A stretch of DNA of 59,571 bases from Candidatus Tethybacter castellensis (GCA_036679665.1 JAZHEJ010000040.1:1-59571), one strand, 5' to 3'; counted from the first letter of the stretch, positions 15,088-27,147 are shown. Numbers and translations: made by a program. Notes: generated by a model not told the origin, from the sequence alone.

Positions 15088-15693
15088 CTAGCGGTATTCG
15101 GAGTCGGCGTTTCTTGCTTTGGCGATTTCAGCTTCGTGCTTGTCGCCGACTTCCAACAACATATCTTTGGTGTAGTAAAGATCGCCTCTTCGTTCACCGT
15201 GATATTCATAGATCTGCGTTTCGACGATTGCGTCAACCGGACACGCCTCTTCACACAAGCCGCAATAGATGCACTTGACCATGTCTATGTCATACCTGGT
15301 GGTTCGGCGCGAACCGTCATCGCGCACTTCAGATTCAATATGAATCGCCATTGCCGGACACACCGCCTCGCATAACTTGCAGGCTATGCATCGTTCTTCA
15401 CCATTGGGATAGCGGCGTAACGCATGAAGTCCGCGAAACCGCGAACTCACCGGAGCCTTTTCTTCAGGATAGCGGACCGTGATTTTTTTAGTCAACATTT
15501 TGCGCCAGGTCAACAACAATCCACGCAACAATTCCTTTAACAAAAACGACTTGCCAACAATAGCCAGACGCTGACCGAATGTCACTGGTGCCAACCCGGC
15601 TTCAGCAGCACTGTTTTGGTCGCTTACCGAAATTTTCGATTGAGCTGGTGACGCTTTGTGTGCTTGCATATCAGTTTTGATGTTATTTTCCAA
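15088..15693 (-). CDS. nuoI: NADH-quinone oxidoreductase subunit I
   Basis: [29 protein letters not shown] and [17 protein letters not shown] (two 4Fe-4S motifs). Confidence 0.97.
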
Positions 15694-15695
15694 AA

Positions 15696-16763
15696 TCAGT
15701 TACCCCAAACCCATAGCGGCGTACGTTGCCAAAACCCAACTACGACTAACCAAACGATGGTTAGTGGTATAAACACTTTCCAGCCTAAACGCATGATTTG
15801 GTCATAGCGGTAGCGGGGAAAAGTTGCCCGAAACCACAAAAATAAAAATAACACAAACGCGGTTTTGAACACCAGCCAGACTAATCCTGGAATCCAGTTA
15901 AACGGCGCTATGTCGAACGGAGGTAACCATCCGCCCAAAAACATGGTGGCCGTCAATACCGAAATCAAAATCATATTCGCGTATTCCGCCAGGAAAAAAA
16001 TCGCAAACGCCATTCCTGAGTATTCGACGTGAAATCCTGCGACTAGCTCTGATTCTCCTTCAGCAACATCAAACGGAGCCCGGTTGGTTTCAGCGACACC
16101 GGAAATCAAATACACGACTAGCATCGGAAAAAGCGGTACAAAATACCAGGACAAGAAAGTAGCGCCTTGCTGTCCTTCTACGATCGCTGACAGATTTAGG
16201 CTGCCTGAAGCCATCAGCACGGTCACGAGTGCGAAACCCATCGCGATCTCGTACGACACCAATTGCGCCGCTGAGCGTAAGCAACCGAGTAGCGCGTATT
16301 TCGAATTGGACGCCCACCCGGCAATAATAATTCCATACACGCCCACCGAGGTCGCAGCCAGCACGAACATAAGCCCGGCATCAATATCGGCCAAAACCAG
16401 CTCGGCGGAAAATGGTATCACCGCCCACACCACCAATGCCGCGCTGATGGATATGGTTGGCGCGATTAAAAACAACATTTTGCTAGCTTCAACCGGCATA
16501 ATGATTTCTTTAAGCAGTAACTTTAGAACGTCGGCAAACGGCTGTAACAATCCATATTTGCCAACACGGTCAGGGCCTACGCGCAACTGCATCGACCCGA
16601 TTACTTTACGCTCAGCGTAGGTAAGATAGGCAACGCTAAGAATGAGCGGAATAACGATCGCCAATATTTTGATGATGGTAACCGTAAAGTATCCAACCCA
16701 ACCTGCATAAACTCCCATCCAAGGTTCAAGCAAGTCGGTTACCTCGTTATTGATAAATTCCAC
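15696..16763 (-). CDS. nuoH: NADH-quinone oxidoreductase subunit H
   Basis: [55 protein letters not shown]. Start placed at GTG 16763, overlapping the nuoG stop. Confidence 0.97.
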
Positions 16764-19186
16764 TACCCAACTCCCCCCACAGCTTGGTGTTCTGTGGTGA
16801 CCTGCCGTACCATAATACGTGAGCACGCACCGAGAATTGCGGTGTGATCATTGCCCCAAGGCAAGCGTGCGCACCCGCGAGCTAAGCTGTCATCAGCACG
16901 TACGATGCAGGTGACTTCAATATTAGACGCAGCTTGGTCCGCTAAGCTTACCAACGCCTGATCGCCTGGGCTGATTCCCAGTTGCGCCAGATCCGCAGGA
17001 TGCATAGACAGCATGCGTGAACGCGCGGCAATTTGAGTTTCCTGTAAAGGTACCGCTCGGCGGACAACCGAATCGCCGGCAAAATGCCCCACTTCCGCCA
17101 ACCGCTCAAATTCCCCGACCGCAAATTTTTCTTTAGCAACGGAACGCGGTGGTGGCATATTTGTCAGCTTACAGTTGAGCAGTTCACTGAAGTCTCCCGC
17201 CGTAGCCAACTTGGCTCGCGCCTGAATGATATCTTCAAAAGTAAAACCCGTAACATCCATCATATTAGCCAGTACGCGCAGAATTTTCCAAGTCGGCCGT
17301 GCTTCGCCCGGTGGAAGTACCGCAGGTTCCATCTTGGCGGCATTACCTTCAAGATTAACCAGTGTGCCCATACATTCACCAAATGACGTCGCGGGTAGCA
17401 TAATGTCGGCGTATTCATTTGCGCCCACGAAGTAACTACCGATATTGATGACGCATGCCTGTTCAAACGCCGCATGCGCTGAGTGTGGATCAGCGCAATC
17501 CAACGGTTCGCAGTCAATCAGCACATAGGCTTTTAACTGCTGGTTTATCATCTGACGGGAGTTTAAACCGGGTTGCTCTAGCTTTTCCAACATAAACCCG
17601 CGGTGTGGCGTCGCTCCGGCAAGCTCAATGCCGATCGCATTAGCTCCATCAACTAAAACTCCTTGAAAACCTTCTAGCAACGACGCAAGCTTGGCGGCCA
17701 GCCGATAAATAAGCGCGTAATCGGTAGCGTTTTGCGCTTGTGCGCCAAGCCAAATCGCGGGATTCTTACGCTCTTGCAGTTGCTTGGCAAATTGCCGATG
17801 CCGCTCGCTAGGCTCACCGAAATCGGTTATCCAGGTTGGTAACGACTCGCCCGCGGATACCATACACTGACAAAGAGCAGCAAGCGTATAGGCATATTTA
17901 GAAGGCGGCACAATAAACTGGTCAGCTATCGGCAGATTGCCGGCCAAGTCCAAAGAACCGACCGCATGGATACCTTTGGCTGCTAATTGCGTAGCGTTGC
18001 GCAGCCTGATCGGTAACAGCGGCAATTCGTTGGCAGGATCAGAGCCGATCAGCAAGGCTCCGTCAAGGTTGTAAATTTCCTCTATCGAAACTCCCAGCCA
18101 CGCCACACCCTGCTGATACCCGTCCAGCTCAAAGTCCTGTTGGCGCAAACGAAAATCTATGTTGAATACGTTAATTGAGCGAAACAGGTCAGCCGCGAGC
18201 ATCGCTTCTTCACACGATACTTGCGGGCCAAGCAAAACGCCGACCTGGTCAGCGCCGTAACTATTGATAATATCCGTTAGCTGTTTGACTGCGTAACTTA
18301 AAGCCGCCTGCCACTCTACCCGCTGTGTTTTGGTCGCGTCAGGTTTTTTGATATAAGGATGTAACAACCGGGCGGCGGAATTTACCCCGGTGTATGCGAA
18401 GCGGTCGCGATCGGATATCCAACATTGATTAATCTCTTCATGGTCTCTGGGTATGACCCGTTTAATCTGCTGATCTTTGGAGTGAATATGGATATAACTG
18501 CCCCAAGAATCATGTCGCGCCACCCCGGCTGTGCGTTTCAATTCCCAAGTGCGCGCCGAAAAGCGATACGGTTTGGAATTCAACGCTCCTACCGGGCATA
18601 TATCGATCATGTTGCCGGATAACTCAGAATCGACGGTGCTTTCAATATAAGGCATGATTTCGGAATGCTCGCCCCGGCCGACCATTCCAAGTTCCATATT
18701 GCCTGCAATTTCCTGACCAAAACGCACGCAACGCGTACAGTGGATACATCTGGTCATCACCGTGGTTATCAGCGGACCCAAGTGTTTTTCAAACACAACA
18801 CGCTTTTTTTCGGTATAACGGGTCGCCGATGCCCCATAGCCCACGGCAAGATCTTGTAATTGGCATTCGCCGCCTTGGTCGCAGATCGGGCAATCGAGCG
18901 GATGATTGATGAGCAAAAATTCCATCACCCCACGTTGCGAAATCTGAGGTTTCGGCGAATTAGTGTCAATCACCATACCGTCGGTCACATATGTTGCGCA
19001 AGACGGCATTGGTTTGGGAGCTTTGTTAATTTCAACCAAACACATTCTGCAGTTGGCCGGGATGGTCAGTTTGGGATGGTAGCAAAAATGCGGTATATAG
19101 ACCCCGGCCTGCCGACAGGCCTCAAATACCGTGGTCCGTCCACGCACATTCCGCTTTTTGCCATTAATGGTGATTTTGACGTCCAT
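16763..19186 (-). CDS. nuoG: NADH-quinone oxidoreductase subunit G
   Basis: [10 protein letters not shown]...[35 protein letters not shown]. Start ATG 19186. Confidence 0.97.
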
Positions 19187-19203
19187 AGGTCCTCGCGATG
19201 CGA

Positions 19204-20487
19204 CTAGCAACCGAATCCTGTGGTAACCATCAGCTCTTGTTCGGTTACGGCGTATTCGAATTCTTCGCCAAAATGCTTCAGAAAACTGACTATCGGGGTG
19301 GCCGCCGCCGCACCCAACGCACAGATTGTATGGCCGTCTATATTGTGGGCCACTTGTTTGAGCAACTCAATATCTTCAGGCTTACCATCGCCACATTTAA
19401 TCCTGTTTACCACTCGCCATAGCCAACCGGTTCCTTCTCGACACGGTGTGCACTGCCCGCAGGATTCTTCGTGATAAAAATATGCTAGCCTCTCTAGCGC
19501 TGTTACCATACAGGTTGTTTCGTCCATGACGATCACCGATCCCGCTCCTAAGATTGAACCGGCCTTGGAAATCGAATCGTAATCCATATTCATCTGCATC
19601 GCCACTTCAGCCGGCAACACGGGTGTTGAAGATCCGCCGGGAATAACCGCTTTGAGCTTTTTGCCGTTGCGCATCCCGCCCGCCATTTCCAACAAGGCGG
19701 CAAACGGCGTACCCAGCGGTACTTCGTAATTGCCCGGTTTTGCAACATGGCCGCTTACCGAAAATATTTTAGTACCTCCGTTATTGGTTTTTCCCAATTT
19801 CAAAAACTCATCCGCACCGGTCTTTAATATGTAGGGTACGCAAGCGAATGTCTCCACGTTATTTATCGTAGTCGGCCGACCATACAGACCGAAAGATGCC
19901 GGGAAAGGCGGCTTGTTGCGCGGTTGGCCTTTTTTGCCCTCAAGCGATTCCAACAGCGCAGTTTCCTCGCCACAAATGTAAGCGCCCCACCCGCAATGAG
20001 CGTGCAACTCAAATGAAAAATCGGTTCCAAACAAACCTTTGCCGATCATTCCCGCGGACTGTGCCGCCATGAGCGCTTTTTCAAACTTTTCGTATACTTC
20101 GAAGATCTCGCCGTGTATATAGACATAGCCGATATTGGCGCCGATAATGTAAGCGGCGATCACCATTCCTTCGATCAGCAGATGCGGGTTGTACAATAAA
20201 ATATCGCGATCTTTGAACGTTCCCGGTTCGCCCTCATCGGCATTGCAAACCAAAAACACATTCCCTTTGATATTTGGCGGGATAAATCCCCATTTGAGTC
20301 CGGAAGGAAAACCGGCGCCGCCACGCCCGCGTAATGCGCTGTCTTTTATCTGGTTGCGCAATTGGCCCGGTTCAATCCGCTTGGCAAGCACACCTTCCAA
20401 CACCTTATACCCGCCGTGTTTGCGGTAGATTTCGATATCTGCCAGATCGCCCTTATCAAGATCAGCAAAGATTACTTCGTTAGCCAT
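19204..20487 (-). CDS. nuoF: NADH-quinone oxidoreductase subunit F
   Basis: LRGRGGAGFP, NADEGEPG, YICGEETALLES, ESCGQCTPCREG, ICALG. Start ATG 20487. Confidence 0.97.
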   Translation of the reverse strand: MANEVIFADLDKGDLADIEIYRKHGGYKVLEGVLAKRIEPGQLRNQIKDSALRGRGGAGFPSGLKWGFIPPNIKGNVFLVCNADEGEPGTFKDRDILLYNPHLLIEGMVIAAYIIGANIGYVYIHGEIFEVYEKFEKALMAAQSAGMIGKGLFGTDFSFELHAHCGWGAYICGEETALLESLEGKKGQPRNKPPFPASFGLYGRPTTINNVETFACVPYILKTGADEFLKLGKTNNGGTKIFSVSGHVAKPGNYEVPLGTPFAALLEMAGGMRNGKKLKAVIPGGSSTPVLPAEVAMQMNMDYDSISKAGSILGAGSVIVMDETTCMVTALERLAYFYHEESCGQCTPCREGTGWLWRVVNRIKCGDGKPEDIELLKQVAHNIDGHTICALGAAAATPIVSFLKHFGEEFEYAVTEQELMVTTGFGC

Positions 20488-20685
20488 GCAATTGAAGTTA
20501 CTAAATCCAGCACGCAATCATCGCTAGCGTTTATTTTACCTGCAACACGACCGAGTATCGACAAAATACGTCGCTCGACCCTCCAACTTGTTTGGTCTGG
20601 GTATACATTACATTGGATAATTCGTAAGTATTAATGTAGATTATGCTATATTCCGCTAGCATCAGCTATTGCCTTTTTTAATTTA

Positions 20686-23127
20686 ATGGATCCAAAATAC
20701 GGTTTTAACGCTGTCGAACGCAAAATCCAGCAACGTTGGGCTAAGCAAGACTGCTTTACGGTCAACGACGACGACCCTCGTCCCAAATACTACAGTTTGT
20801 GTATGTGGCCCTACCCTTCAGGCGATCTACACGTGGGTCATCTGCGCAACTACGCGATCGGTGATGTCTGGGCACGCCACAAACGTATGCTAGGTTTCAA
20901 CGTTCTGCAACCGATGGGCTGGGATGCGTTCGGCAAAGATGCTGAACTCAAAGCCAATAAATTAGGCGTTCACCCCGCTAAGTGGGTCAAACAAAATACG
21001 GCCAATATGCGCCGCGAGCTCAAAGAGCTTGGCTTTATGATTGACTGGAACCGAGAACTCAACGCTAGCAATCTTAAATATTACCGCTGGGAACAACTAC
21101 TGTTCGTGCGCATGTGGGAACAAAATCTTGTCTATTACGAACCCACTAAAGTACTATGGGACAAAGCCACCAAAACCGTAACCTCGCGTCGCGATATAGA
21201 CGACGGCAAAGTGGCCAAAGAAGACATTGAGATCAAGGTTATGCCTGCCTATCTGATGCGCCTTCGCGAGTACGCCAATCAATTGCTTGACGGTCTGACG
21301 CAGGTTAACTGGCCGGAAAAAATTATCAAAGACCAGCAGTACCTGATCGGGCGGTCGGAGGGAATGACGTTGCATTTTGCGCTAGTCGGCAATGCGCCGG
21401 TCGATGCGCTTGAGGTATATACCACTCGTCCAGATACCATCTGCGGCGTCACCTACATGGCGGTGGCCGCAAGCCATCCTTTGGCACAAGCGGCAGCCTC
21501 TGACAATCCGAAACTGGCAAAATTCTGTACGCAGTGCGAACAAACCTTGCCCATGGACGCCGGCAATCCTCACACCGAAAAACAAGGCATGCCTTTGGAC
21601 TTTACAGTTGTCAATCCGGTTTCTGGCAAACATGTCCCGGTATGGGTTGCCGATTACGTGGTCGATGACTACGGAAGCGGCGCGCTAATGGGCGTGCCTG
21701 CTCATGATGAACGCGATTTTAAATTTGCCACCCGGTATCAGATTCCGATCATCCGTGTCATCAACTTGGATCAACAAGATCCTCATCGGCCAATTACTCA
21801 AGCCGAAACATCCTCCGGAATTGCCGTCAACAGCGGCGAACTGGACGGCCTTGATCTTAAAGGCTGCGTAAGCAAACTGGAAGAAATGCTCGGTCCTGAC
21901 AAAGCGCGCCGCGATTATGGACTAAGCTTACGCGACTGGCCGATTAACCGCCACATGTACTGGGGAACCCCGATCCCCATCGTTATCTGTTCCGACTGCG
22001 GACGTGTTCCCGTCCCGGAACATCAGTTGCCGGTATCACTACCCAACGATTTTAAACACGGTCCGCAGGCATTGGCCGACCACCCTGATTTTGCTTTTTG
22101 TCCATGCCCGCGATGCGGTGCCAAGGCACGCCGGGAAACCGACACCATGGACACTTTTGTGAATTCCGCGTGGTACTTCGCGCGCTTTACCTGTCCTGAT
22201 AATTCCACGCAAATGATTGATAACCGAGCCAAGCGGTGGCTTCCTTGCGATCATTATTTCGGTGGTGACGAACACGCCCAAGGCCATCTGGTTTACGCGC
22301 GTTTTATACACAAAGTGTTGCGCGATCTCGGCCTGTATCCAAAAGGGTGCGGGGACGAACCTTTCCAAGCCTTGCTGTGCCAGGGCATGGTACTAGGTGC
22401 CGATGGTAAAAAAATGTCCAAATCACAAGATAACACTATCATGGCCAAGCATATTCTTGATTGCTACGGCGCGGACACCGCACGGTTGTACATAATTGGC
22501 ATGGGTAATCCGAAAGATGCCTACCCGTGGAACGAAGAGCATGTCAAAGACCATGCCATGTTTTTACAAAACTTGTGGCAATTGGCCCTAAAACGCCGCG
22601 ATCAGATTGCCGCGGGCAAAGAGCAAAAACTTGCCCCGGAACTCCAACTCAACCTTAACAAAATCCTCAATAACATTGATCGCAACTTGCGCGATCAACA
22701 CCTGAATAATTTGGTCTTCGGAGGCATTCACAGCATCCGCAACCTTATCCGGGACAACGCCGACAGCGCCGCAATGCAATATCAAGGTTTCATGCACTTG
22801 CTCAAAGTGATGAATCTAATCTGCCCTCATATCGCCGAAGAGCTATGGCAACAGCTTGGCTTTGAAGGTCTGGTTATCGACTCCGCTTGGTGGCCCGCTT
22901 TGACCGATGCAGATCTACACAGTGCCACAACCGTATTTGTAGTGCAGGTAAATGGCAAACGACGAGACCAATTTGAAGCCCCGTTTGACACCGACGCCAC
23001 CGAATTACTCGAATTAGCACAACAGCGTCCTAACATCGCCCGCTATATTTCAGGCAAGCAAATTGCCAAAAGCAAGGTGATCCGACAAGGCAACAGTCAT
23101 GGTCTCATTTTTTTCGCCCTAAGATAG
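20686..23127 (+). CDS. leuS: Leucyl-tRNA synthetase, copy A (catalytic motifs intact, divergent)
   Basis: PYPSGDLHVGH (HIGH 20830-20841), MGWDAFG, CP1 TTRPDT and AHDERD, DTMDTF..SAWY, KMSKS (22411-22425), C-terminal QVNGK. Confidence 0.92.
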   Translation: MDPKYGFNAVERKIQQRWAKQDCFTVNDDDPRPKYYSLCMWPYPSGDLHVGHLRNYAIGDVWARHKRMLGFNVLQPMGWDAFGKDAELKANKLGVHPAKWVKQNTANMRRELKELGFMIDWNRELNASNLKYYRWEQLLFVRMWEQNLVYYEPTKVLWDKATKTVTSRRDIDDGKVAKEDIEIKVMPAYLMRLREYANQLLDGLTQVNWPEKIIKDQQYLIGRSEGMTLHFALVGNAPVDALEVYTTRPDTICGVTYMAVAASHPLAQAAASDNPKLAKFCTQCEQTLPMDAGNPHTEKQGMPLDFTVVNPVSGKHVPVWVADYVVDDYGSGALMGVPAHDERDFKFATRYQIPIIRVINLDQQDPHRPITQAETSSGIAVNSGELDGLDLKGCVSKLEEMLGPDKARRDYGLSLRDWPINRHMYWGTPIPIVICSDCGRVPVPEHQLPVSLPNDFKHGPQALADHPDFAFCPCPRCGAKARRETDTMDTFVNSAWYFARFTCPDNSTQMIDNRAKRWLPCDHYFGGDEHAQGHLVYARFIHKVLRDLGLYPKGCGDEPFQALLCQGMVLGADGKKMSKSQDNTIMAKHILDCYGADTARLYIIGMGNPKDAYPWNEEHVKDHAMFLQNLWQLALKRRDQIAAGKEQKLAPELQLNLNKILNNIDRNLRDQHLNNLVFGGIHSIRNLIRDNADSAAMQYQGFMHLLKVMNLICPHIAEELWQQLGFEGLVIDSAWWPALTDADLHSATTVFVVQVNGKRRDQFEAPFDTDATELLELAQQRPNIARYISGKQIAKSKVIRQGNSHGLIFFALR

Positions 23128-23220
23128 CCTGACTTTTATTATGTTTTTGCTCACGACTTGCCGAACCATGTCACAGCGGCACACAAACTCGACATATCAG
23201 CTAGCGCCACGCTTCGTCAC

Positions 23221-26200
23221 ATGAGCATCGACACCGGTTATGACCATGCCCGCATTAAGCGCCAGGCGCAATCGCGCTGGGCGGCAAAAAACAAATCACA
23301 CATAGCCAAAGCTGATGGCTCCGGTGAATTTTGCTGTCAAGCCATGTTCGCAGATCTGGCCGGCAAATTTCATCTAGGGCACTGTCGTCGCTATGTATTG
23401 AACGATATCATGACCCGCTTTCAACTTATGCAAGGCCGCAACACCAAGCAAGTTGTTGGTTTCGAAACCTATGGATTACAGGTTCATCTTGCTGCGCGTG
23501 ACGCAAATCTTGATCCGGAAAAATGGGCTGTGGAAACGACGGCGCATGCCGTTACCACACTGAAAGAATTGGGAATTTTGACTGATTGGAACAAGATAGT
23601 TGTTACCAATTCCGCCCAACAATGTCACATGCAACAACAATTGTTTCTTCACCTGTGGAACGCTGAGAACTCACCGATTTTGCGCAAAAAACAGCCGGGA
23701 ATTGCTTACTGGGATCCGGGAACTCGCATGTATTTATCGTTGCGGCAGTTAGTCAACGGCCGCGGCCCAGAATCCGGCATGCTGACCGAAATTCGTAATA
23801 TTTCAAATTACGCTCTTTCAATAAGTCATCAACTTGCCGACGATTTGTTACAAAATTTGGAGACCCTACCGCGCTGGGACCGCCGGGTTAAAAACATGCA
23901 GCGCGAGAGCATCGGCCGCGAAAACGGACTGACCATCTCTTTTGATTTGCTTGATCGCAACGGCAAGCCCCTACCCGCGGTTCAGGTGTTTACCTCGCAT
24001 CCGGATACGATTATGGGCACGACGTTTTTGGCCGTGGCCACCACTCATCCGCTTGCCCGTAAAGTTGCCCGGGACGATCCGCAAATAGCGACATTCTGCG
24101 AAGCCGTAAACCATCCCAACTACGCGATTGAAAAACTTGCCGAAGATAAACGACAAGAAGGCATGCCTTTGGGAATTTACGCGATTAACCCGGTTACCGG
24201 AGATCATGTGCCGGTATGGGTCGCCAACTATGTGATCGCAGATTACGGAACTAGCGCGGTGCTAGGCATCCCCGCTCACGATCAGCGCAATTACAACTTT
24301 GCGCAACGGCACAATTTGCCGATGCGTAAAGTCGCGAGAACTTCCGATCAGGACATAGCTGCTCCGCTTACCAAACCTTTAGTGGATAAATTCGCCCTTG
24401 TCTGCAACAGCGGTTCGCTGGAACAACCGCTCAATCGGCTCAAAAAAGCTTTGCAAAATGAACTGCAATCACGTCAGCCTCAAGACGGCAGCAATCCCGA
24501 CACGCTGATCCGGCAAAGATATTTTGACCAACAGATTAATCTTTGCATCCATGACCTGCTGACCAAACGCGACATCAAAGTCAGCCCGACGGCGGTATCA
24601 AGGCTGCGAAGCTGGCCGATAAGTCAACCTGATTACTGGGGATGTCCGGTCCCGCTGGTTCATTGTTCGCAATGCGGCACAGTTCCGGTTCCAGGCGAGC
24701 AGTTGCCGCTGACGTTGCCGCAATACCGGGATAATCAAGACAGCCTGGATTGCTATCCGGATTTTATCGCTTGCGTTTGTCCACAATGCGGTGCGGACGC
24801 TCAACGGGAAACTGATACGCTTGATCCGTCATTTAGTCTTTCGTGGATGTCGCAATCTAAAAACATGACTAACGCCAAGTTGCCGGACGCATCGTTGGAT
24901 TATTACTGTTGCGGTGCGGAACAAGCCACCAGCCATCTGCTTTGCGCCCGAATTTTGCAACACCTGTTAGCCCGATCTGGCGTTGAACAAAATGAAACCT
25001 TCGACGAACCGTTCACCGAGGTGTTCAGTCCGGGAATGGTGATGAACTATGGCCTGCCGATGACCAAGTCATATGCCAATGCCATTGATCCAACCCAGTT
25101 GCTGGATAACTACGGGGCGGATATGCTCAGGCTTTATCTGTCTGCAATCGAAAATCCTCGCAACAACCTTCACTGGGATTCAGACAAACTTATCAGTTTG
25201 CAAGGAATCATCATTTCCTCCGAGCTCGTCAAGCTGCGTTGCGGGACCTTAACCGGCCTTCAACTTGATTTGGTGCATAATTTGCTCTCTAAAAGTGAAA
25301 TTAATCGTTTACAAAAAGGGCTGATCAATCGTTCTGAATTCAAACAACTAAAAACCGGTAAACTTGAAGCGAGCAAATACGCCCAAGTCAAAGAACTGAT
25401 TGGCGAAGGAGCGATCATTCGTTTGCAATCAGGCCTGCTCAACGAAGCCCAGGCGCGTCAGCTACGCAATGGCGAACTGGAAAATGCCAAGTTGCGCGAG
25501 GTACTGACAATAATTGATGAATTTCAGCTTAACCATTTGCGCAACGGACTACTAGATAAAAATGAATTTCGGCTGTTGCAGATCGGCAAGCTTGCCGGTA
25601 AAAAACTATCCGCTGTCCAAAAGCTTGTCCCGGCCAAGGTACTGTCCGAATTACAGACAAATTCGATTGATCCTGACGAACCTGGCGCGGTAAGTACGCT
25701 ACAAGAGCGGTTGTTGGACAACTTTGAACGCGAAGCCTGGCTTGAATACACAACTGAAGTTGAAATGTTGCGCAAAGTCCGCACGATACTTACCGAGGAT
25801 GAGATCAGTTGTATGCAAAAAGGCCTGCTCAATCAACAAGAATTCGCTGCTTTGCGCGCCAAGAAATTACCCGAAGAAAAAATGGCTCGGGTGCGCGCGA
25901 TACTCAATGATAACGAAATTCTGCGCTTACAAGAAGGACTGTTGTCGCGCGAAGAAATCTTTCAGCTCAAAGCTGGCAAGCTAGCTGCAAAGCGCCTGCA
26001 TGCAGTGCTGGAAATTATTGACGAAAAACAAATTAAACAACTGCAAAACGGGGTATTGCAACCATCTGAACACGAACAACTACGCAAAATTTTAGGCAGT
26101 AGCCGCAAAATGGCTCAATTACGCGCAGGTACTTTAGGTGAAGACAAGCTTCGCCAAATTCGCGAGCAATTTACCGCTAATCAGCTTGAGCGCTATCAGC

Positions 26201-27147
26201 AAGCTTGCCTCAGTGCCGACACCATGGCGAGACTCGCGAACTTTATCAGCACCGCGCAAATGAACCGATTGGTAAATTTCGTTTCTGACGTCAAGCAGAA
26301 GCAATTGAAAAAAGTTCTCTCCGTAAAACAACTGAAGTTATTGCGGCAACGCAAATTAGGCAAGCAGTTGCGATTTCCTTTGTTAAAATTTATTGATCAG
26401 CGCCTAGAAAATAAACTGTTCAATTTTCTTACCAAACAAGCTCAAGAGCGACTGTTTGACTATTTGCCCTATGAACGCATGGAGCAGTTGCTTGGATTTA
26501 GCGAATACCTATGGCAGCTTGTTACTTCACGGCAGAAGATGATTATCCAAGGATCCAAATCGCGCAGTGGCACCCAAAGTGCGCGGCGTTGTCAGCTTCA
26601 CAAAACCCTAAAAGCGATTAACGCCTGTTACACCCCCGAATCACATAACGCCGACAAATCTGAAGCGGGAGGGATGGAACTGAACAAAATGGTCACGCGT
26701 TGCAAAGATATTATCGTGCTGCTAGATGAAGCGTGCGACCCTGACGAAGCCGATGATTGCGCCTTTGCTTCCGAAGCGGTCACCATCTTGTTGCAGGTCC
26801 TACATCCGATCATGCCCCATATAACCGAAGAATTGTGGGCGATGTTACAAATGCCGCAGTTGCTAGTTGAAACACCTTGGCCGCAACCAGATCAGGCGGC
26901 ATTGGAATTTTTTACCGATGTTACATGCATCATCCAAGAAAATGGCCGCAAGCGCCATGCGTTTAGCTTATCTGCCAGCGCAGACCCCGCTACCACCATT
27001 GAGCTCGCCAGCGCCGAACTGAACGAATTAGCGATTCGCCAAGGCCATTGTGGTTTTCCGAGTTTAGGCAAGCAGGTAGTACGTATTGAGCATGCCAAAA
27101 AACAAGATCAGATTGTTATCAACTTCGTGCTATACCTTCATAATTAA
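23221..27147 (+). CDS. Leucyl-tRNA synthetase paralog, copy B (degenerate active and editing sites, ~430-aa repeat insertion)
   Basis: LeuRS collinearity: HLGH 23371-23382, WDP...GRG, TSHPDT, PVWVANYV, AHDQRN, CxxC knuckles, PMTKS 25057-25071, LHPIMPHITEELW, QENGR. Start probably ATG 23221 (ORF is open from TTG 23158). Confidence 0.88.
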   Translation: MSIDTGYDHARIKRQAQSRWAAKNKSHIAKADGSGEFCCQAMFADLAGKFHLGHCRRYVLNDIMTRFQLMQGRNTKQVVGFETYGLQVHLAARDANLDPEKWAVETTAHAVTTLKELGILTDWNKIVVTNSAQQCHMQQQLFLHLWNAENSPILRKKQPGIAYWDPGTRMYLSLRQLVNGRGPESGMLTEIRNISNYALSISHQLADDLLQNLETLPRWDRRVKNMQRESIGRENGLTISFDLLDRNGKPLPAVQVFTSHPDTIMGTTFLAVATTHPLARKVARDDPQIATFCEAVNHPNYAIEKLAEDKRQEGMPLGIYAINPVTGDHVPVWVANYVIADYGTSAVLGIPAHDQRNYNFAQRHNLPMRKVARTSDQDIAAPLTKPLVDKFALVCNSGSLEQPLNRLKKALQNELQSRQPQDGSNPDTLIRQRYFDQQINLCIHDLLTKRDIKVSPTAVSRLRSWPISQPDYWGCPVPLVHCSQCGTVPVPGEQLPLTLPQYRDNQDSLDCYPDFIACVCPQCGADAQRETDTLDPSFSLSWMSQSKNMTNAKLPDASLDYYCCGAEQATSHLLCARILQHLLARSGVEQNETFDEPFTEVFSPGMVMNYGLPMTKSYANAIDPTQLLDNYGADMLRLYLSAIENPRNNLHWDSDKLISLQGIIISSELVKLRCGTLTGLQLDLVHNLLSKSEINRLQKGLINRSEFKQLKTGKLEASKYAQVKELIGEGAIIRLQSGLLNEAQARQLRNGELENAKLREVLTIIDEFQLNHLRNGLLDKNEFRLLQIGKLAGKKLSAVQKLVPAKVLSELQTNSIDPDEPGAVSTLQERLLDNFEREAWLEYTTEVEMLRKVRTILTEDEISCMQKGLLNQQEFAALRAKKLPEEKMARVRAILNDNEILRLQEGLLSREEIFQLKAGKLAAKRLHAVLEIIDEKQIKQLQNGVLQPSEHEQLRKILGSSRKMAQLRAGTLGEDKLRQIREQFTANQLERYQQACLSADTMARLANFISTAQMNRLVNFVSDVKQKQLKKVLSVKQLKLLRQRKLGKQLRFPLLKFIDQRLENKLFNFLTKQAQERLFDYLPYERMEQLLGFSEYLWQLVTSRQKMIIQGSKSRSGTQSARRCQLHKTLKAINACYTPESHNADKSEAGGMELNKMVTRCKDIIVLLDEACDPDEADDCAFASEAVTILLQVLHPIMPHITEELWAMLQMPQLLVETPWPQPDQAALEFFTDVTCIIQENGRKRHAFSLSASADPATTIELASAELNELAIRQGHCGFPSLGKQVVRIEHAKKQDQIVINFVLYLHN
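25282..26100 (+). repeat. Protein-level tandem repeat, 38-aa (114-nt) period, inside leuS copy B
   Basis: Units begin at 25282, 25396, 25510, 25786, 25900 and 26014 (last one partial), plus a degenerate unit at 25624. Consensus (I/L)(I/L)xxxEIxxLQxGLLxxxEFxxLxxGKLxxxKLxxVxx. Confidence 0.9.

What the first reader, a model, noticed from the sequence alone, without database searches (positions are those of the whole stretch)
25180..26480. ~430-aa insertion in LeuRS copy B built from a 38-aa helical repeat
Seen: copy A reads YPWNEEHVKDHAMFLQNLWQLA. In copy B the equivalent halves (LHWDSDKL... and ...LLGFSEYLWQLV) are separated by about 1300 nt. The insert holds five clean 38-aa units, e.g. LLSKSEINRLQKGLINRSEFKQLKTGKLEASKYAQVKE, LIGEGAIIRLQSGLLNEAQARQLRNGELENAKLREVLT and ILNDNEILRLQEGLLSREEIFQLKAGKLAAKRLHAVLE, plus degenerate and partial units and a Lys/Arg/Gln-rich tail. 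Similarity is at protein level with diverged codons, so the expansion is old and maintained. Established: this junction joins the catalytic Rossmann fold to the helical anticodon-binding domain. Inference: an alpha-solenoid-like binding module (RNA or protein) of a family I do not recognise as TPR, ankyrin, HEAT or PPR; it would reposition or replace the tRNA-binding surface.
Basis: partly seen in the sequence, partly recalled or inferred. Interest (0 to 1): 0.82.

Follow-up and report, generated by a model that had tools for sequence, protein, structure and literature searches.

The report
Helical-repeat arm inside a dead LeuRS copy
A small group of uncultured Gammaproteobacteria keeps, next to its working leucyl-tRNA synthetase gene, a second copy that has lost its catalytic residues and carries a conserved 430-residue arm of short helices from no recognised repeat family, which points to an unknown non-enzymatic job for a translation enzyme.

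Summary
LeuRS copy B (23158..27147) has a 432-aa insert (aa 679-1110, nt 25192..26487) between the stem-contact fold and the first helix of the anticodon-binding domain. It holds five clean 38-aa units, several degenerate units and a basic tail.

It is not an assembly error, an intein or junk:
- 16 B-type protein clusters carry an insert, and all eight loci examined have the order nuo / leuS-A / leuS-B / lptE / holA.
- Six of the nine distinct lineages examined keep the insert at 429-432 aa.
- dN/dS of the insert is 0.19-0.24.

- B is a pseudo-synthetase across the family. HIGH, KMSKS and the editing aspartate are degenerate.
- A and B are sister clades from one duplication inside the family.
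- The 38-aa unit is three ~12.7-aa helix-turn sub-repeats.
- The tail is a run of 12-aa repeats.
- The insert is net basic in 10 of 11 homologues, although base composition differs widely between the genomes.

The only family resemblance is a sub-threshold one to SHOCT. Foldseek and PDB profile searches find nothing.

My best reading is a non-catalytic LeuRS paralogue with a new basic binding arm, most likely for RNA/tRNA. A protein scaffold or a membrane anchor remain live rivals.

The parts
20686..23127 (+). leuS copy A, the presumed working leucyl-tRNA synthetase (813 aa; HVGH and KMSKS present)
   Evidence: TIGR00396 scores 777.5 bits against a cut-off of 548.4. Catalytic and editing motifs are kept.
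23158..27147 (+). leuS copy B, a LeuRS-derived pseudo-synthetase (1329 aa). The start is either TTG 23158 or ATG 23221.
   Evidence: TIGR00396 scores 435.7 bits, below the cut-off. It is 33% identical to A and the sister clade of A. See for the start region.
23371..23382 (+). HIGH position of B (HLGH in the window; YLGQ, NAGS and HAGS in three of the seven first-set homologues)
   Evidence: Alignment; coordinates.
24274..24291 (+). Editing-site motif AHDQRN. The universal editing aspartate (E. coli D345) is Asn here, and N or S in 8 of the 9 B lineages compared.
25057..25071 (+). Degenerate KMSKS (PMTKS in the window; PMAKS, PMSPK, PMDAI, PMAPG, PMAPW in homologues)
25192..26487 (+). The whole 432-aa helical-repeat insert (aa 679-1110)
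   Evidence: AlphaFold2 gives 33 short helices. dN/dS is 0.19-0.24.
25192..25281 (+). Unit 0, a degenerate first unit that starts directly after the native W-D-x-x-K-L
   Evidence: Weak HMM hits at this position in several homologues. Mean identity among the seven first-set B proteins is 44%.
25282..25623 (+). Units 1-3, three clean 38-aa units (aa 709-822)
   Evidence: HMM scores of 59-68 bits. Orthologous units occur in all homologues.
25624..25785 (+). Central 54-aa hinge or spacer with the conserved D..PG.V..LQ..LD motif and one long predicted helix
   Evidence: Invariant columns D166, P170, G171, L176, Q177, L181, D182 of alignment A2. Helix at model residues 172-203.
25786..26013 (+). 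Units 5-6, two clean 38-aa units (aa 877-952)
   Evidence: HMM scores of 63-69 bits.
26014..26187 (+). Degenerate units 7-8 (aa 953-1010)
   Evidence: HMM scores of 24 and 14 bits. This is the least conserved part, 26% mean identity.
26188..26487 (+). Basic tail made of about eight 12-aa repeats (L-[LV]-N-[FY]-[LI]-D-x-x-[RK]-M-[DE]-x). They run in register into the first helix of the anticodon-binding domain.
   Evidence: 12-mer register. The last three repeats are conserved in ten of the eleven B proteins compared and degenerate in P0012. Net charge +13.
26488..26523 (+). LLGFSEYLWQLV, where the LeuRS anticodon-binding domain resumes (equivalent to A's MFLQNLWQLA)

Best explanation
Copy B is a non-catalytic descendant of the clade's own LeuRS. 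It arose by a tandem duplication inside one family of small-genome, uncultured Gammaproteobacteria. On the stem of the B clade it lost the residues needed for aminoacylation and editing, but kept the overall LeuRS body, including the CP1 domain, the anticodon-binding domain and the C-terminal tRNA-elbow domain.

At the junction between the stem-contact fold and the anticodon-binding domain it gained an array of about 430 aa. The array was built by internal amplification of a ~12.7-aa helix-plus-turn element. These elements are grouped into 38-aa three-helix units with the signature E-[IL]-x-R-L-[QR]-x-G-L-L-x-x-x-E-[FY]-x-x-L-R-x-G-K-L. The layout is two arms of about three units around a conserved hinge, followed by a tail of 12-aa repeats.

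I read the array as a structured, mostly basic binding arm mounted beside the tRNA-facing side of the LeuRS scaffold. On this reading B is an RNA-handling accessory, most likely for tRNA-Leu, made together with the working enzyme A from the same tightly coupled operon.

Shown: the anatomy, the age, the purifying selection, the loss of catalytic motifs, the helical nature and the basic charge. Inferred: that it binds anything, that the ligand is RNA, and that it acts together with A.
For: Real and conserved:
- 16 B-type clusters among 5.8 billion all carry an insert; none lacks one.
- All eight loci examined share the synteny nuo / leuS-A / leuS-B / lptE / holA / proA, and it also holds in G015 and G016.
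- The insert is 429-432 aa in six of the nine distinct lineages examined. The shorter ones (381, 282, 161 aa) are nested inside the B clade, so they are secondary deletions.
- dN/dS is 0.24 and 0.19 for the insert, 0.18 and 0.10 for the B body, and 0.18 and 0.06 for A.
- Mean identity is 37.5% for the insert, 43% for the anticodon-binding domain and 35% for the C-terminal domain.

Origin:
- A and B are sister clades (support 100/99) that split after the single-copy relative G018. The A and B trees are largely congruent in their well-supported groupings. The stem branches are 1.03 (B) and 0.61 (A).
- No other ORF in the genome carries the repeat, so it was amplified in place.

Pseudo-enzyme:
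- HIGH reads HLGH, HLGH, HVGH, YLGQ, NAGS, HAGS, HVGH in the seven first-set homologues.
- KMSKS reads PMTKS, PMAKS, PMSPK, PMDAI, PMAPG, PMAPG, PMAPW.
- The editing Asp is N or S in 8 of the 9 B lineages compared, and GG has become CC.
- Of 282 columns invariant in nine outgroup LeuRS, 59 are kept in A but lost in B, against 15 the other way.
- New residues invariant in B (D241, E255, S280, P407, C585, P634) argue for a new constraint rather than decay.

Structure:
- AlphaFold2 predicts 33 helices of 8-10 residues whose starts are spaced about 12.6 residues apart.
- Fourier peaks of hydrophobic residues lie at 12.7, 6.4 and 4.2 in all seven first-set homologues, and are absent from the N-terminal control.

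Charge:
- Net charge is +7 to +28 and pI 9.2-10.9 in 10 of 11 homologues. In the relatives whose six frames show the many spurious long ORFs typical of high G+C, Arg replaces Lys: 39K/33R in the window against 22K/66R in G015.
- Within the unit, R9, K/R24, K/R27 and K/R32 are conserved.

Co-expression with A:
- There is no promoter-like or terminator-like site between A and B on the coding strand.
- A/B and B/lptE overlap by 4 nt in the homologous loci.
Against: No binding experiment or complex model exists. One homologue, P0004, has a slightly acidic insert (net -4, pI 6.3), so basic charge is not universal. The conserved E6/R9 and E19 residues could be internal salt bridges rather than ligand contacts. 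The AlphaFold2 models have only moderate confidence (pTM 0.45 and 0.42), so the three-dimensional shape of the arm is unknown. The five tRNA-Leu genes of the genome are ordinary, and Rfam finds no RNA element in the window, so nothing points to a special RNA partner. Lineages with only 161-282 aa of insert persist, so the full arm is not strictly required.
Confidence: 0.42

Rival explanations
1. The arm is a protein-protein scaffold. The repeat array is a docking or oligomerisation platform. It either holds B to LeuRS-A, giving a two-subunit synthetase in which the dead subunit supplies structure or regulation, or it recruits other proteins, much as helical appended domains build multi-synthetase complexes in eukaryotes.
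For: A and B are inherited together, translationally coupled and both accelerated after the duplication. A has itself lost 15 otherwise invariant LeuRS residues that B keeps, clustered in the ZN1 / CP1-hinge region (NGRGPESGML.EIR and VKNMQRESIG are kept in B). This fits complementary degeneration. Helical solenoids commonly bind proteins (general knowledge).
Against: Bacterial LeuRS is a monomer (general knowledge), and no interface has been identified. The only experimental test of oligomerisation by a SHOCT domain was negative (PMC3581485). Conserved basic charge is not expected for a pure protein scaffold. I could not run a multimer prediction.
Confidence: 0.25
2. The arm is a membrane anchor. 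It is an array of SHOCT-like bihelical elements that tethers the LeuRS-like body to the inner leaflet of the cytoplasmic membrane through basic amphipathic helices.
For: SHOCT is the best, though sub-threshold, Pfam family: 24.2 bits for the insert against a threshold of 27, and 5 of 34 units with E<1. hhalign of the unit profile against 23 genuine SHOCT domains aligns G13/E19/F20 in register (P 6e-4, probability 29%). A comparative-genomics study predicts that SHOCT-like domains anchor diverse domains to the inner membrane leaflet (PMC11237479). The insert is basic. The gene sits directly upstream of lptE, an envelope-assembly gene.
Against: SHOCT membership is not established. The membrane role of SHOCT is itself only a prediction. 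The leuS-lptE-holA order is the ancestral gammaproteobacterial arrangement and is also found with single-copy LeuRS (general knowledge), so it carries no functional signal. No transmembrane or lipidation signal is present.
Confidence: 0.15
3. The insert is a neutral or decaying expansion: a run-away repeat in a redundant gene copy that is on its way to being lost.
For: B has lost catalytic motifs. Some lineages have shortened the insert. One assembly has a frameshift inside it. The insert evolves somewhat faster than the body.
Against: dN/dS is 0.19-0.24. Apart from the one frameshifted assembly, every full-length B gene examined has an intact reading frame, across a wide spread of base composition, in genomes of only 1.6-1.9 Mb. 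The length is fixed at 429-432 aa in six of the nine distinct lineages. Units are conserved position by position. B has its own new invariant residues.
Confidence: 0.05
4. The insert is an artefact or a mobile insertion: a misassembly, an intein or a transposed domain.
For: One relative's assembly (G017) breaks inside the repeat array, which shows that repeats can trouble assemblers.
Against: The same insert lies at the same codon position in independent assemblies from different samples and sources, including contigs of 0.95 and 1.93 Mb. There is no repeat at the DNA level that could mislead an assembler. No Hint/intein, endonuclease or transposase family is hit. The two G017 contigs overlap exactly.
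Confidence: 0.01

Closest known systems
LeuRS-I of Sulfolobaceae and LeuRS2 of Halobacteria (duplicated, poorly active or inactive LeuRS paralogues; review PMC9437257)
   Same: Each is a second LeuRS gene from a lineage-specific duplication. It has lost, or nearly lost, aminoacylation, is retained by selection, and is thought to act outside protein synthesis, possibly in a tRNA-dependent way.
   Different: Those are archaeal. LeuRS-I has a disrupted CP1 and an acidic C-terminal domain and still makes Leu-AMP. Neither has a large internal helical-repeat insert. Here CP1 is the best-conserved domain (57% mean identity), the HIGH/KMSKS motifs are degenerate, and 430 aa of repeats have been added.
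SHOCT domain (Pfam PF09851; PMC3581485)
   Same: It is a short bihelical element with a strongly conserved Gly and a Glu six residues later, followed by an aromatic residue, with no indels. The unit aligns to profile positions 8-25 in register.
   Different: Every score is below Pfam's threshold. SHOCT is about 28 aa, usually single and C-terminal. Here the element is part of a 38-aa three-helix unit, repeated internally 6-8 times, inside an enzyme fold. hhalign probability is only 29%.
Non-catalytic aaRS-like sensor or regulator modules (the HisRS-like domain of GCN2; HisZ, the HisRS paralogue that regulates HisG; the trypanosomal TyrRS pseudo-dimer)
   Same: A synthetase fold is kept for ligand or tRNA recognition, or as a structural partner, after catalysis has been lost.
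   Different: Those have a defined effector (a kinase domain, HisG, or an active twin in the same chain). B has no enzymatic effector, only the repeat arm. The analogy rests on general knowledge and was not tested here.
Three-helix alpha-solenoid nucleic-acid binders of similar unit length (Pumilio/PUF 36 aa, mTERF ~30 aa, OPR 38 aa)
   Same: Unit length of about 36-38 aa, three short helices per unit, tandem arrays, basic surface.
   Different: No sequence or Foldseek similarity was detected. The resemblance is architectural only and recalled from general knowledge.

Membership tests
Bacterial leucine--tRNA ligase (TIGR00396 leuS_bact), copy B | Score above the curated equivalog cut-off (548.4 bits) | tested here: not met
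   B scores 435.7 bits in three pieces. A scores 777.5 bits. In relatives the N-terminal match of B scores 322-396 bits, below the cut-off.
Bacterial leucine--tRNA ligase (TIGR00396 leuS_bact), copy B | HIGH and KMSKS class I signature motifs | tested here: not met
   HIGH is degenerate in 3 of the 7 first-set homologues (YLGQ, NAGS, HAGS). In KMSKS the first Lys is Pro in all 9 lineages compared and the second Lys is lost in 7 of 9. The window's own copy keeps HLGH and PMTKS.
Bacterial leucine--tRNA ligase (TIGR00396 leuS_bact), copy B | CP1 editing domain with the catalytic Asp (E. coli D345) and the Thr-rich motif | tested here: not met
   The domain is present (PF13603, E 4.9e-49). However, D345 is N or S in 8 of 9 lineages and T248 is S in 9 of 9. 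The role of D345 is taken from general knowledge.
Bacterial leucine--tRNA ligase (TIGR00396 leuS_bact), copy B | Anticodon-binding helical domain and C-terminal tRNA-elbow domain present | tested here: met
   PF08264 matches with E 1.2e-13 at aa 1201-1276. The C-terminal domain aligns with A and with N. gonorrhoeae LeuRS.
Bacterial leucine--tRNA ligase (TIGR00396 leuS_bact), copy B | Leucylation of tRNA-Leu | not testable with these tools
   This needs an enzyme assay.
SHOCT (PF09851) | Score at or above Pfam's gathering threshold (27 bits) | tested here: not met
   The whole insert scores 24.2 bits (E 2.7e-5), the consensus unit 14.6 bits, and 5 of 34 units have E<1. A six-frame search of the window's own genome with PF09851 gives no match at E<=1e-3.
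SHOCT (PF09851) | Two short helices; strongly conserved Gly and Glu at fixed spacing; no indels | tested here: met
   G13 is invariant, E19 occurs in 25 of 33 units and F/Y/L/M at position 20, all aligned in register with the SHOCT Gly/Glu/Phe. Helices flank the Gly in the AlphaFold2 model. The family description comes from PMC3581485.
SHOCT (PF09851) | Profile-profile homology to genuine SHOCT domains | tested here: inconclusive
   hhalign of the unit alignment A1 against 23 genuine SHOCT domains (A5) gives probability 28.8%, P 6e-4, over 17 columns.
SHOCT (PF09851) | [quoted passage not shown] | tested here: not met
   Here it is internal and in tandem, 6-8 copies, each extended by a third helix to 38 aa.
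TPR / ankyrin / HEAT / ARM / PPR / Sel1 / PUF repeat families | A match to the family's Pfam profile, or a Foldseek match to a solved member | tested here: not met
   No such family is listed among the Pfam matches, even with max_evalue 10 (the tool's filters drop most matches above about 0.1). The best Foldseek PDB hit has E 1.5 and TM 0.1 for the full insert, and E 5.5 for three units.
Intein or mobile domain | Hint splicing domain, homing endonuclease or transposase signature | tested here: not met
   No hits in Pfam, NCBIfam or PHROGs. The insert is conserved as protein-coding repeats in all lineages.
Non-catalytic aaRS paralogues (pseudo-synthetases such as LeuRS-I) | A paralogue from a duplication of the housekeeping gene, retained under selection with catalytic residues lost | tested here: met
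   Tree, motif loss and dN/dS of 0.10-0.24. Actual loss of activity is inferred, not measured.

The most novel reading that the evidence does not exclude
The ~12.7-aa helix-turn element, packed as 38-aa three-helix units, defines a previously undescribed class of alpha-solenoid. In LeuRS-B it works as a modular RNA-binding arm. The dead synthetase and its active twin A then form a two-protein tRNA-Leu handling machine, for example one that captures, channels or senses tRNA-Leu. That would be a bacterial counterpart of eukaryotic synthetase appended domains and of the GCN2 HisRS-like sensor.
Probability: 0.12. Interest if true: 0.85.

Novelty: new variant of a known kind. Interest (0 to 1): 0.62.

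Why it matters
Catalytically dead synthetase paralogues are known, but few have a known role, and I found none in bacteria that carries a large, conserved, internally amplified repeat arm. This family gives a compact system for three questions: how a translation enzyme is repurposed after duplication, how a new repeat domain is born inside an existing fold, and what SHOCT-like bihelical elements do. The system consists of two adjacent genes, about 16 natural variants, and natural deletion variants with 161, 282 and 381 aa of insert. It is confined to a small uncultured clade, so its immediate reach is modest.

Tried and rejected
1. DNA-level tandem repeat: Tandem Repeats Finder found nothing, so the repeat is visible only in protein.
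2. Known repeat families, intein or mobile domain: nothing above threshold in Pfam, NCBIfam or PHROGs.
3. Structural relatives: Foldseek against the PDB with the 452-aa model and with a three-unit model gave only noise. A profile search of PDB sequences gave one chance hit, ParG at E 0.14.
4. An intact editing domain, making B a trans-editing factor: I first read CP1 as intact.
5. Origin of the 12-aa tail repeats by duplication of the native first helix of the anticodon-binding domain: a PSSM of the tail repeats ranks the canonical helix only 93rd-177th of about 800 windows in the three A copies scored before the script stopped. This is not supported.
6. A special tRNA-Leu partner: the five tRNA-Leu genes are ordinary, and Rfam finds nothing in the window.
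7. The same repeat elsewhere in the genome: none.
8. B-type proteins without an insert, as an intermediate stage: none among 5.8 billion clusters.
10. The first genome-contig scan with the single protein found nothing. The second scan, with the alignment, named only one relative, an 'uncultured Gammaproteobacteria bacterium' MAG.

Full report
**What is there**

The window carries two leucyl-tRNA synthetase genes head to tail. Copy A lies at 20686..23127 (813 aa) and copy B at 23158..27147 (1329 aa). They are followed by lptE, holA and proA, and preceded on the other strand by nuo genes.

A and B are 33% identical. Their BLASTP alignment stops at B aa 678 and resumes at B aa 1114. The insert is aa 679-1110, nt 25192..26487, 432 aa.

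It begins about 40 residues after the KMSKS position, directly after the conserved Trp that ends the stem-contact fold. It ends where the first helix of the anticodon-binding domain resumes (LLGFSEYLWQLV, equivalent to A's MFLQNLWQLA). The anticodon-binding domain (PF08264) and the C-terminal domain follow intact.

**The repeats**

Five clean 38-aa units lie at aa 709, 747, 785, 877 and 915. Degenerate units lie at aa 679, 953 and 985.

An HMM built from the five window units finds 28 units of at least 15 bits in six orthologous proteins. It finds none of at least 10 bits in 1200 shuffled inserts.

The consensus of 33 units is LLSESEIQRLQHGLLDRAEFAQLRAGKLPAKKLAQVRE. G13 is invariant, and L10, L23 and L28 are above 90%.

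There is no repeat at the DNA level. Units in the window are 37% identical in protein and 48% in DNA. Orthologous units are more alike than paralogous ones, so the array predates the divergence of the lineages.

- The 38-aa unit is a triplet of a ~12.7-aa helix-plus-turn element. AlphaFold2 predicts 33 helices of 8-10 residues whose starts are about 12.6 residues apart. The hydrophobic pattern of all seven first-set homologues has Fourier peaks at 12.7, 6.4 and 4.2 residues, which the N-terminal part of the protein lacks.
- The last ~100 aa are about eight 12-aa repeats (L-[LV]-N-[FY]-[LI]-D-x-x-[RK]-M-[DE]-x) that run in register into the anticodon-binding domain.

Between units 3 and 5 lies a conserved 54-aa hinge with the motif D..PG.V..LQ..LD and one long predicted helix.

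**Is it real and maintained?**

Yes. Word-indexed and exhaustive HMM searches of 5.8 and 1.84 billion proteins find only about 16 B-type clusters. All of them carry an insert, and the next-best hit is an ordinary 820-aa LeuRS.

All eight loci I examined from other assemblies, including contigs of 0.95 and 1.93 Mb, have the same gene order. Two GTDB genomes, G015 and G016, show it as well.

In the 19-species GTDB order, B occurs in 4 of the 5 genomes of one family. The fifth genome, G018, and all other families have a single LeuRS.

The insert is 429-432 aa in six of the nine distinct lineages examined. The three shorter versions (381, 282, 161 aa) are nested inside the B clade and are therefore secondary deletions.

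dN/dS in two close pairs is 0.24 and 0.19 for the insert, 0.18 and 0.10 for the rest of B, and 0.18 and 0.06 for A. Mean pairwise identity of the insert is 37.5%, which lies between that of the anticodon-binding domain (43%) and the C-terminal domain (35%).

These results exclude misassembly, an intein and neutral junk.

**What copy B is**

A and B are sister clades (support 100/99). They arose by a duplication after the split from the single-copy relative G018. Their internal trees are largely congruent in the well-supported groupings. Both stems are long, 1.03 for B and 0.61 for A.

B is catalytically degenerate across the family.
- HIGH reads HLGH, HLGH, HVGH, YLGQ, NAGS, HAGS, HVGH in the seven first-set homologues.
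- KMSKS reads PMTKS, PMAKS, PMSPK, PMDAI, PMAPG, PMAPG, PMAPW.
- The GG of GG(I/V)EHA is CC in all.
- The editing aspartate (E. coli D345) is N or S in 8 of the 9 lineages compared, and T248 is S in all 9.

Of 282 columns invariant in nine outgroup LeuRS, 90 are kept in both copies, 59 only in A, 15 only in B, and 46 in neither.

B also has its own new invariant residues, and CP1 is its best-conserved domain at 57%. It therefore looks like a repurposed scaffold, not a decaying gene. B falls below the NCBIfam LeuRS cut-off (436 against 548 bits), whereas A passes (778 bits).

**What the insert resembles**

No Pfam, NCBIfam or PHROGs family reaches threshold. The only recurrent hit is SHOCT (PF09851).
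- The insert scores 24.2 bits against a threshold of 27.
- The consensus unit scores 14.6 bits.
- 5 of 34 units have E<1, always aligning unit positions 8-25 to profile positions 8-25.

I collected 30 genuine SHOCT domains from genomes of the same class and aligned 23 of them. hhalign against the unit profile puts the Gly, the Glu six residues later and the following aromatic residue in register. Its probability is only 29% (P 6e-4).

The published description of SHOCT gives two short helices, a conserved Gly and Glu, no indels and an unknown function. The one oligomerisation test was negative (PMC3581485). This fits the first two helices of the unit. A later study predicts that SHOCT-like domains anchor proteins to the inner membrane leaflet (PMC11237479).

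Foldseek against the PDB gives only noise, both for the whole insert (best E 1.5, TM about 0.1) and for a three-unit model (best E 5.5). A PDB profile search gives nothing. Both models have only moderate confidence (pLDDT 73.6 and 65.2; pTM 0.45 and 0.42).

The only non-LeuRS protein with a notable match in 1.84 billion is P0013. It is a FecR-domain protein with a uniform 13-aa repeat, L-x-x-L-[KR]-x-G-x-L-x-x-x-x, the same kind of element as the first two sub-repeats of the unit.

No other ORF in the window's genome has the repeat. It was therefore amplified in place.

**How it most likely works**

The following points are shown:
- The array is structured, of fixed length, helical and under purifying selection.
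- It sits at the hinge between the stem-contact fold and the anticodon-binding domain of a LeuRS scaffold that has lost catalysis but kept its tRNA-binding domains.
- The array is net basic (+7 to +28, pI 9.2-10.9) in 10 of 11 homologues. In the relatives whose six frames show the many spurious long ORFs typical of high G+C, Arg replaces Lys.
- B is made from the same coupled operon as A. The coding strand has no promoter-like or terminator-like site between them, and the genes overlap by 4 nt in most loci.

From these points I infer that B is a non-enzymatic accessory and that the insert is a new binding arm. Given the charge and the position, the most likely ligand is RNA, probably tRNA-Leu (confidence about 0.4).

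Three rivals remain:
- A protein scaffold or A-B heteromer (0.25). It is supported by the co-inheritance of the two genes and by the fact that A has itself lost ZN1 / CP1-hinge residues that B keeps.
- A SHOCT-type membrane anchor (0.15).
- Neutral decay (0.05).

Nothing in the genome points to a special RNA partner. The five tRNA-Leu genes are ordinary, and Rfam finds nothing in the window.

**Comparison with what is known, and novelty**

The closest known cases are the duplicated LeuRS-I of Sulfolobaceae and LeuRS2 of Halobacteria. Both are retained although they aminoacylate poorly or not at all, and their role is unknown (PMC9437257). Neither is bacterial and neither carries a repeat insert. 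Literature searches found no description of a bacterial LeuRS paralogue of this kind.

I class the finding as a new variant of a known kind: a pseudo-synthetase paralogue carrying an unclassified, SHOCT-like helical repeat array.

It is real, rare and unexplained. It is also confined to a small uncultured clade and has no functional data, so I score interest at 0.62.

Noticed in passing
window 20686-23127 (copy A), especially aa ~156-220: The presumed active copy A is itself atypical. It has lost 15 residues that are invariant in nine outgroup LeuRS and that B still keeps. These cluster in the ZN1 / CP1-hinge region: A has DDGKVAKEDIEIK and IIKDQQYLIG where B and canonical enzymes have NGRG..SG.L.E.R and VK.MQR..IG. 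A scores about 250 bits lower against TIGR00396 than the single-copy LeuRS of relatives.
   Followed up: partly
window 24454-24597 (B aa ~433-480) and 27016-27069 (B aa 1287-1304): B has two further clade-specific insertions. One, of about 29-45 aa, lies between CP1 and the second half of the catalytic core and is poorly conserved (28% mean identity). The other, of about 14 aa, lies in the C-terminal domain.
   Followed up: no
window 23125-23160: In this genome the stop codon of A (TAG, 23125-23127) and the reading frame of B are in the same frame, with B's frame open immediately after the stop. In most relatives the two genes instead overlap by 4 nt in different frames. The true start of B here is uncertain: TTG 23158 or ATG 23221.
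   Followed up: partly
L056 5001-8976: In one assembly (a 517-kb contig) the B gene is called as two overlapping ORFs of 742 and 594 aa. The frameshift lies inside units 1-2 of the insert. It is either a sequencing error or a natural split of B into a body and an arm-plus-anticodon-domain piece.
   Followed up: no
P0013 aa ~200-700 (not in the window): An unrelated 1225-aa protein has a FecR domain and a long array of uniform 13-aa repeats, L-x-x-L-[KR]-x-G-x-L-[DS]-x-E-x. It is the only non-LeuRS protein with a strong match to the insert profile in 1.84 billion proteins (E 1.9e-19). It may be the same elementary helix-turn element in pure form.
   Followed up: partly
L009, L010, L012, L013 (relatives G015-G017) versus the window: The window is 47-50% G+C around the locus. 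In three relatives all six frames are full of long spurious ORFs, which is typical of high G+C. The Lys:Arg ratio of the insert shifts from 39:33 in the window to 22:66 in G015, while the net positive charge is kept.
   Followed up: partly
window 15088-20517 (minus strand): The nuoF/G/H/I-like genes stand divergently next to leuS-A in every related locus examined. I did not look further.
   Followed up: no
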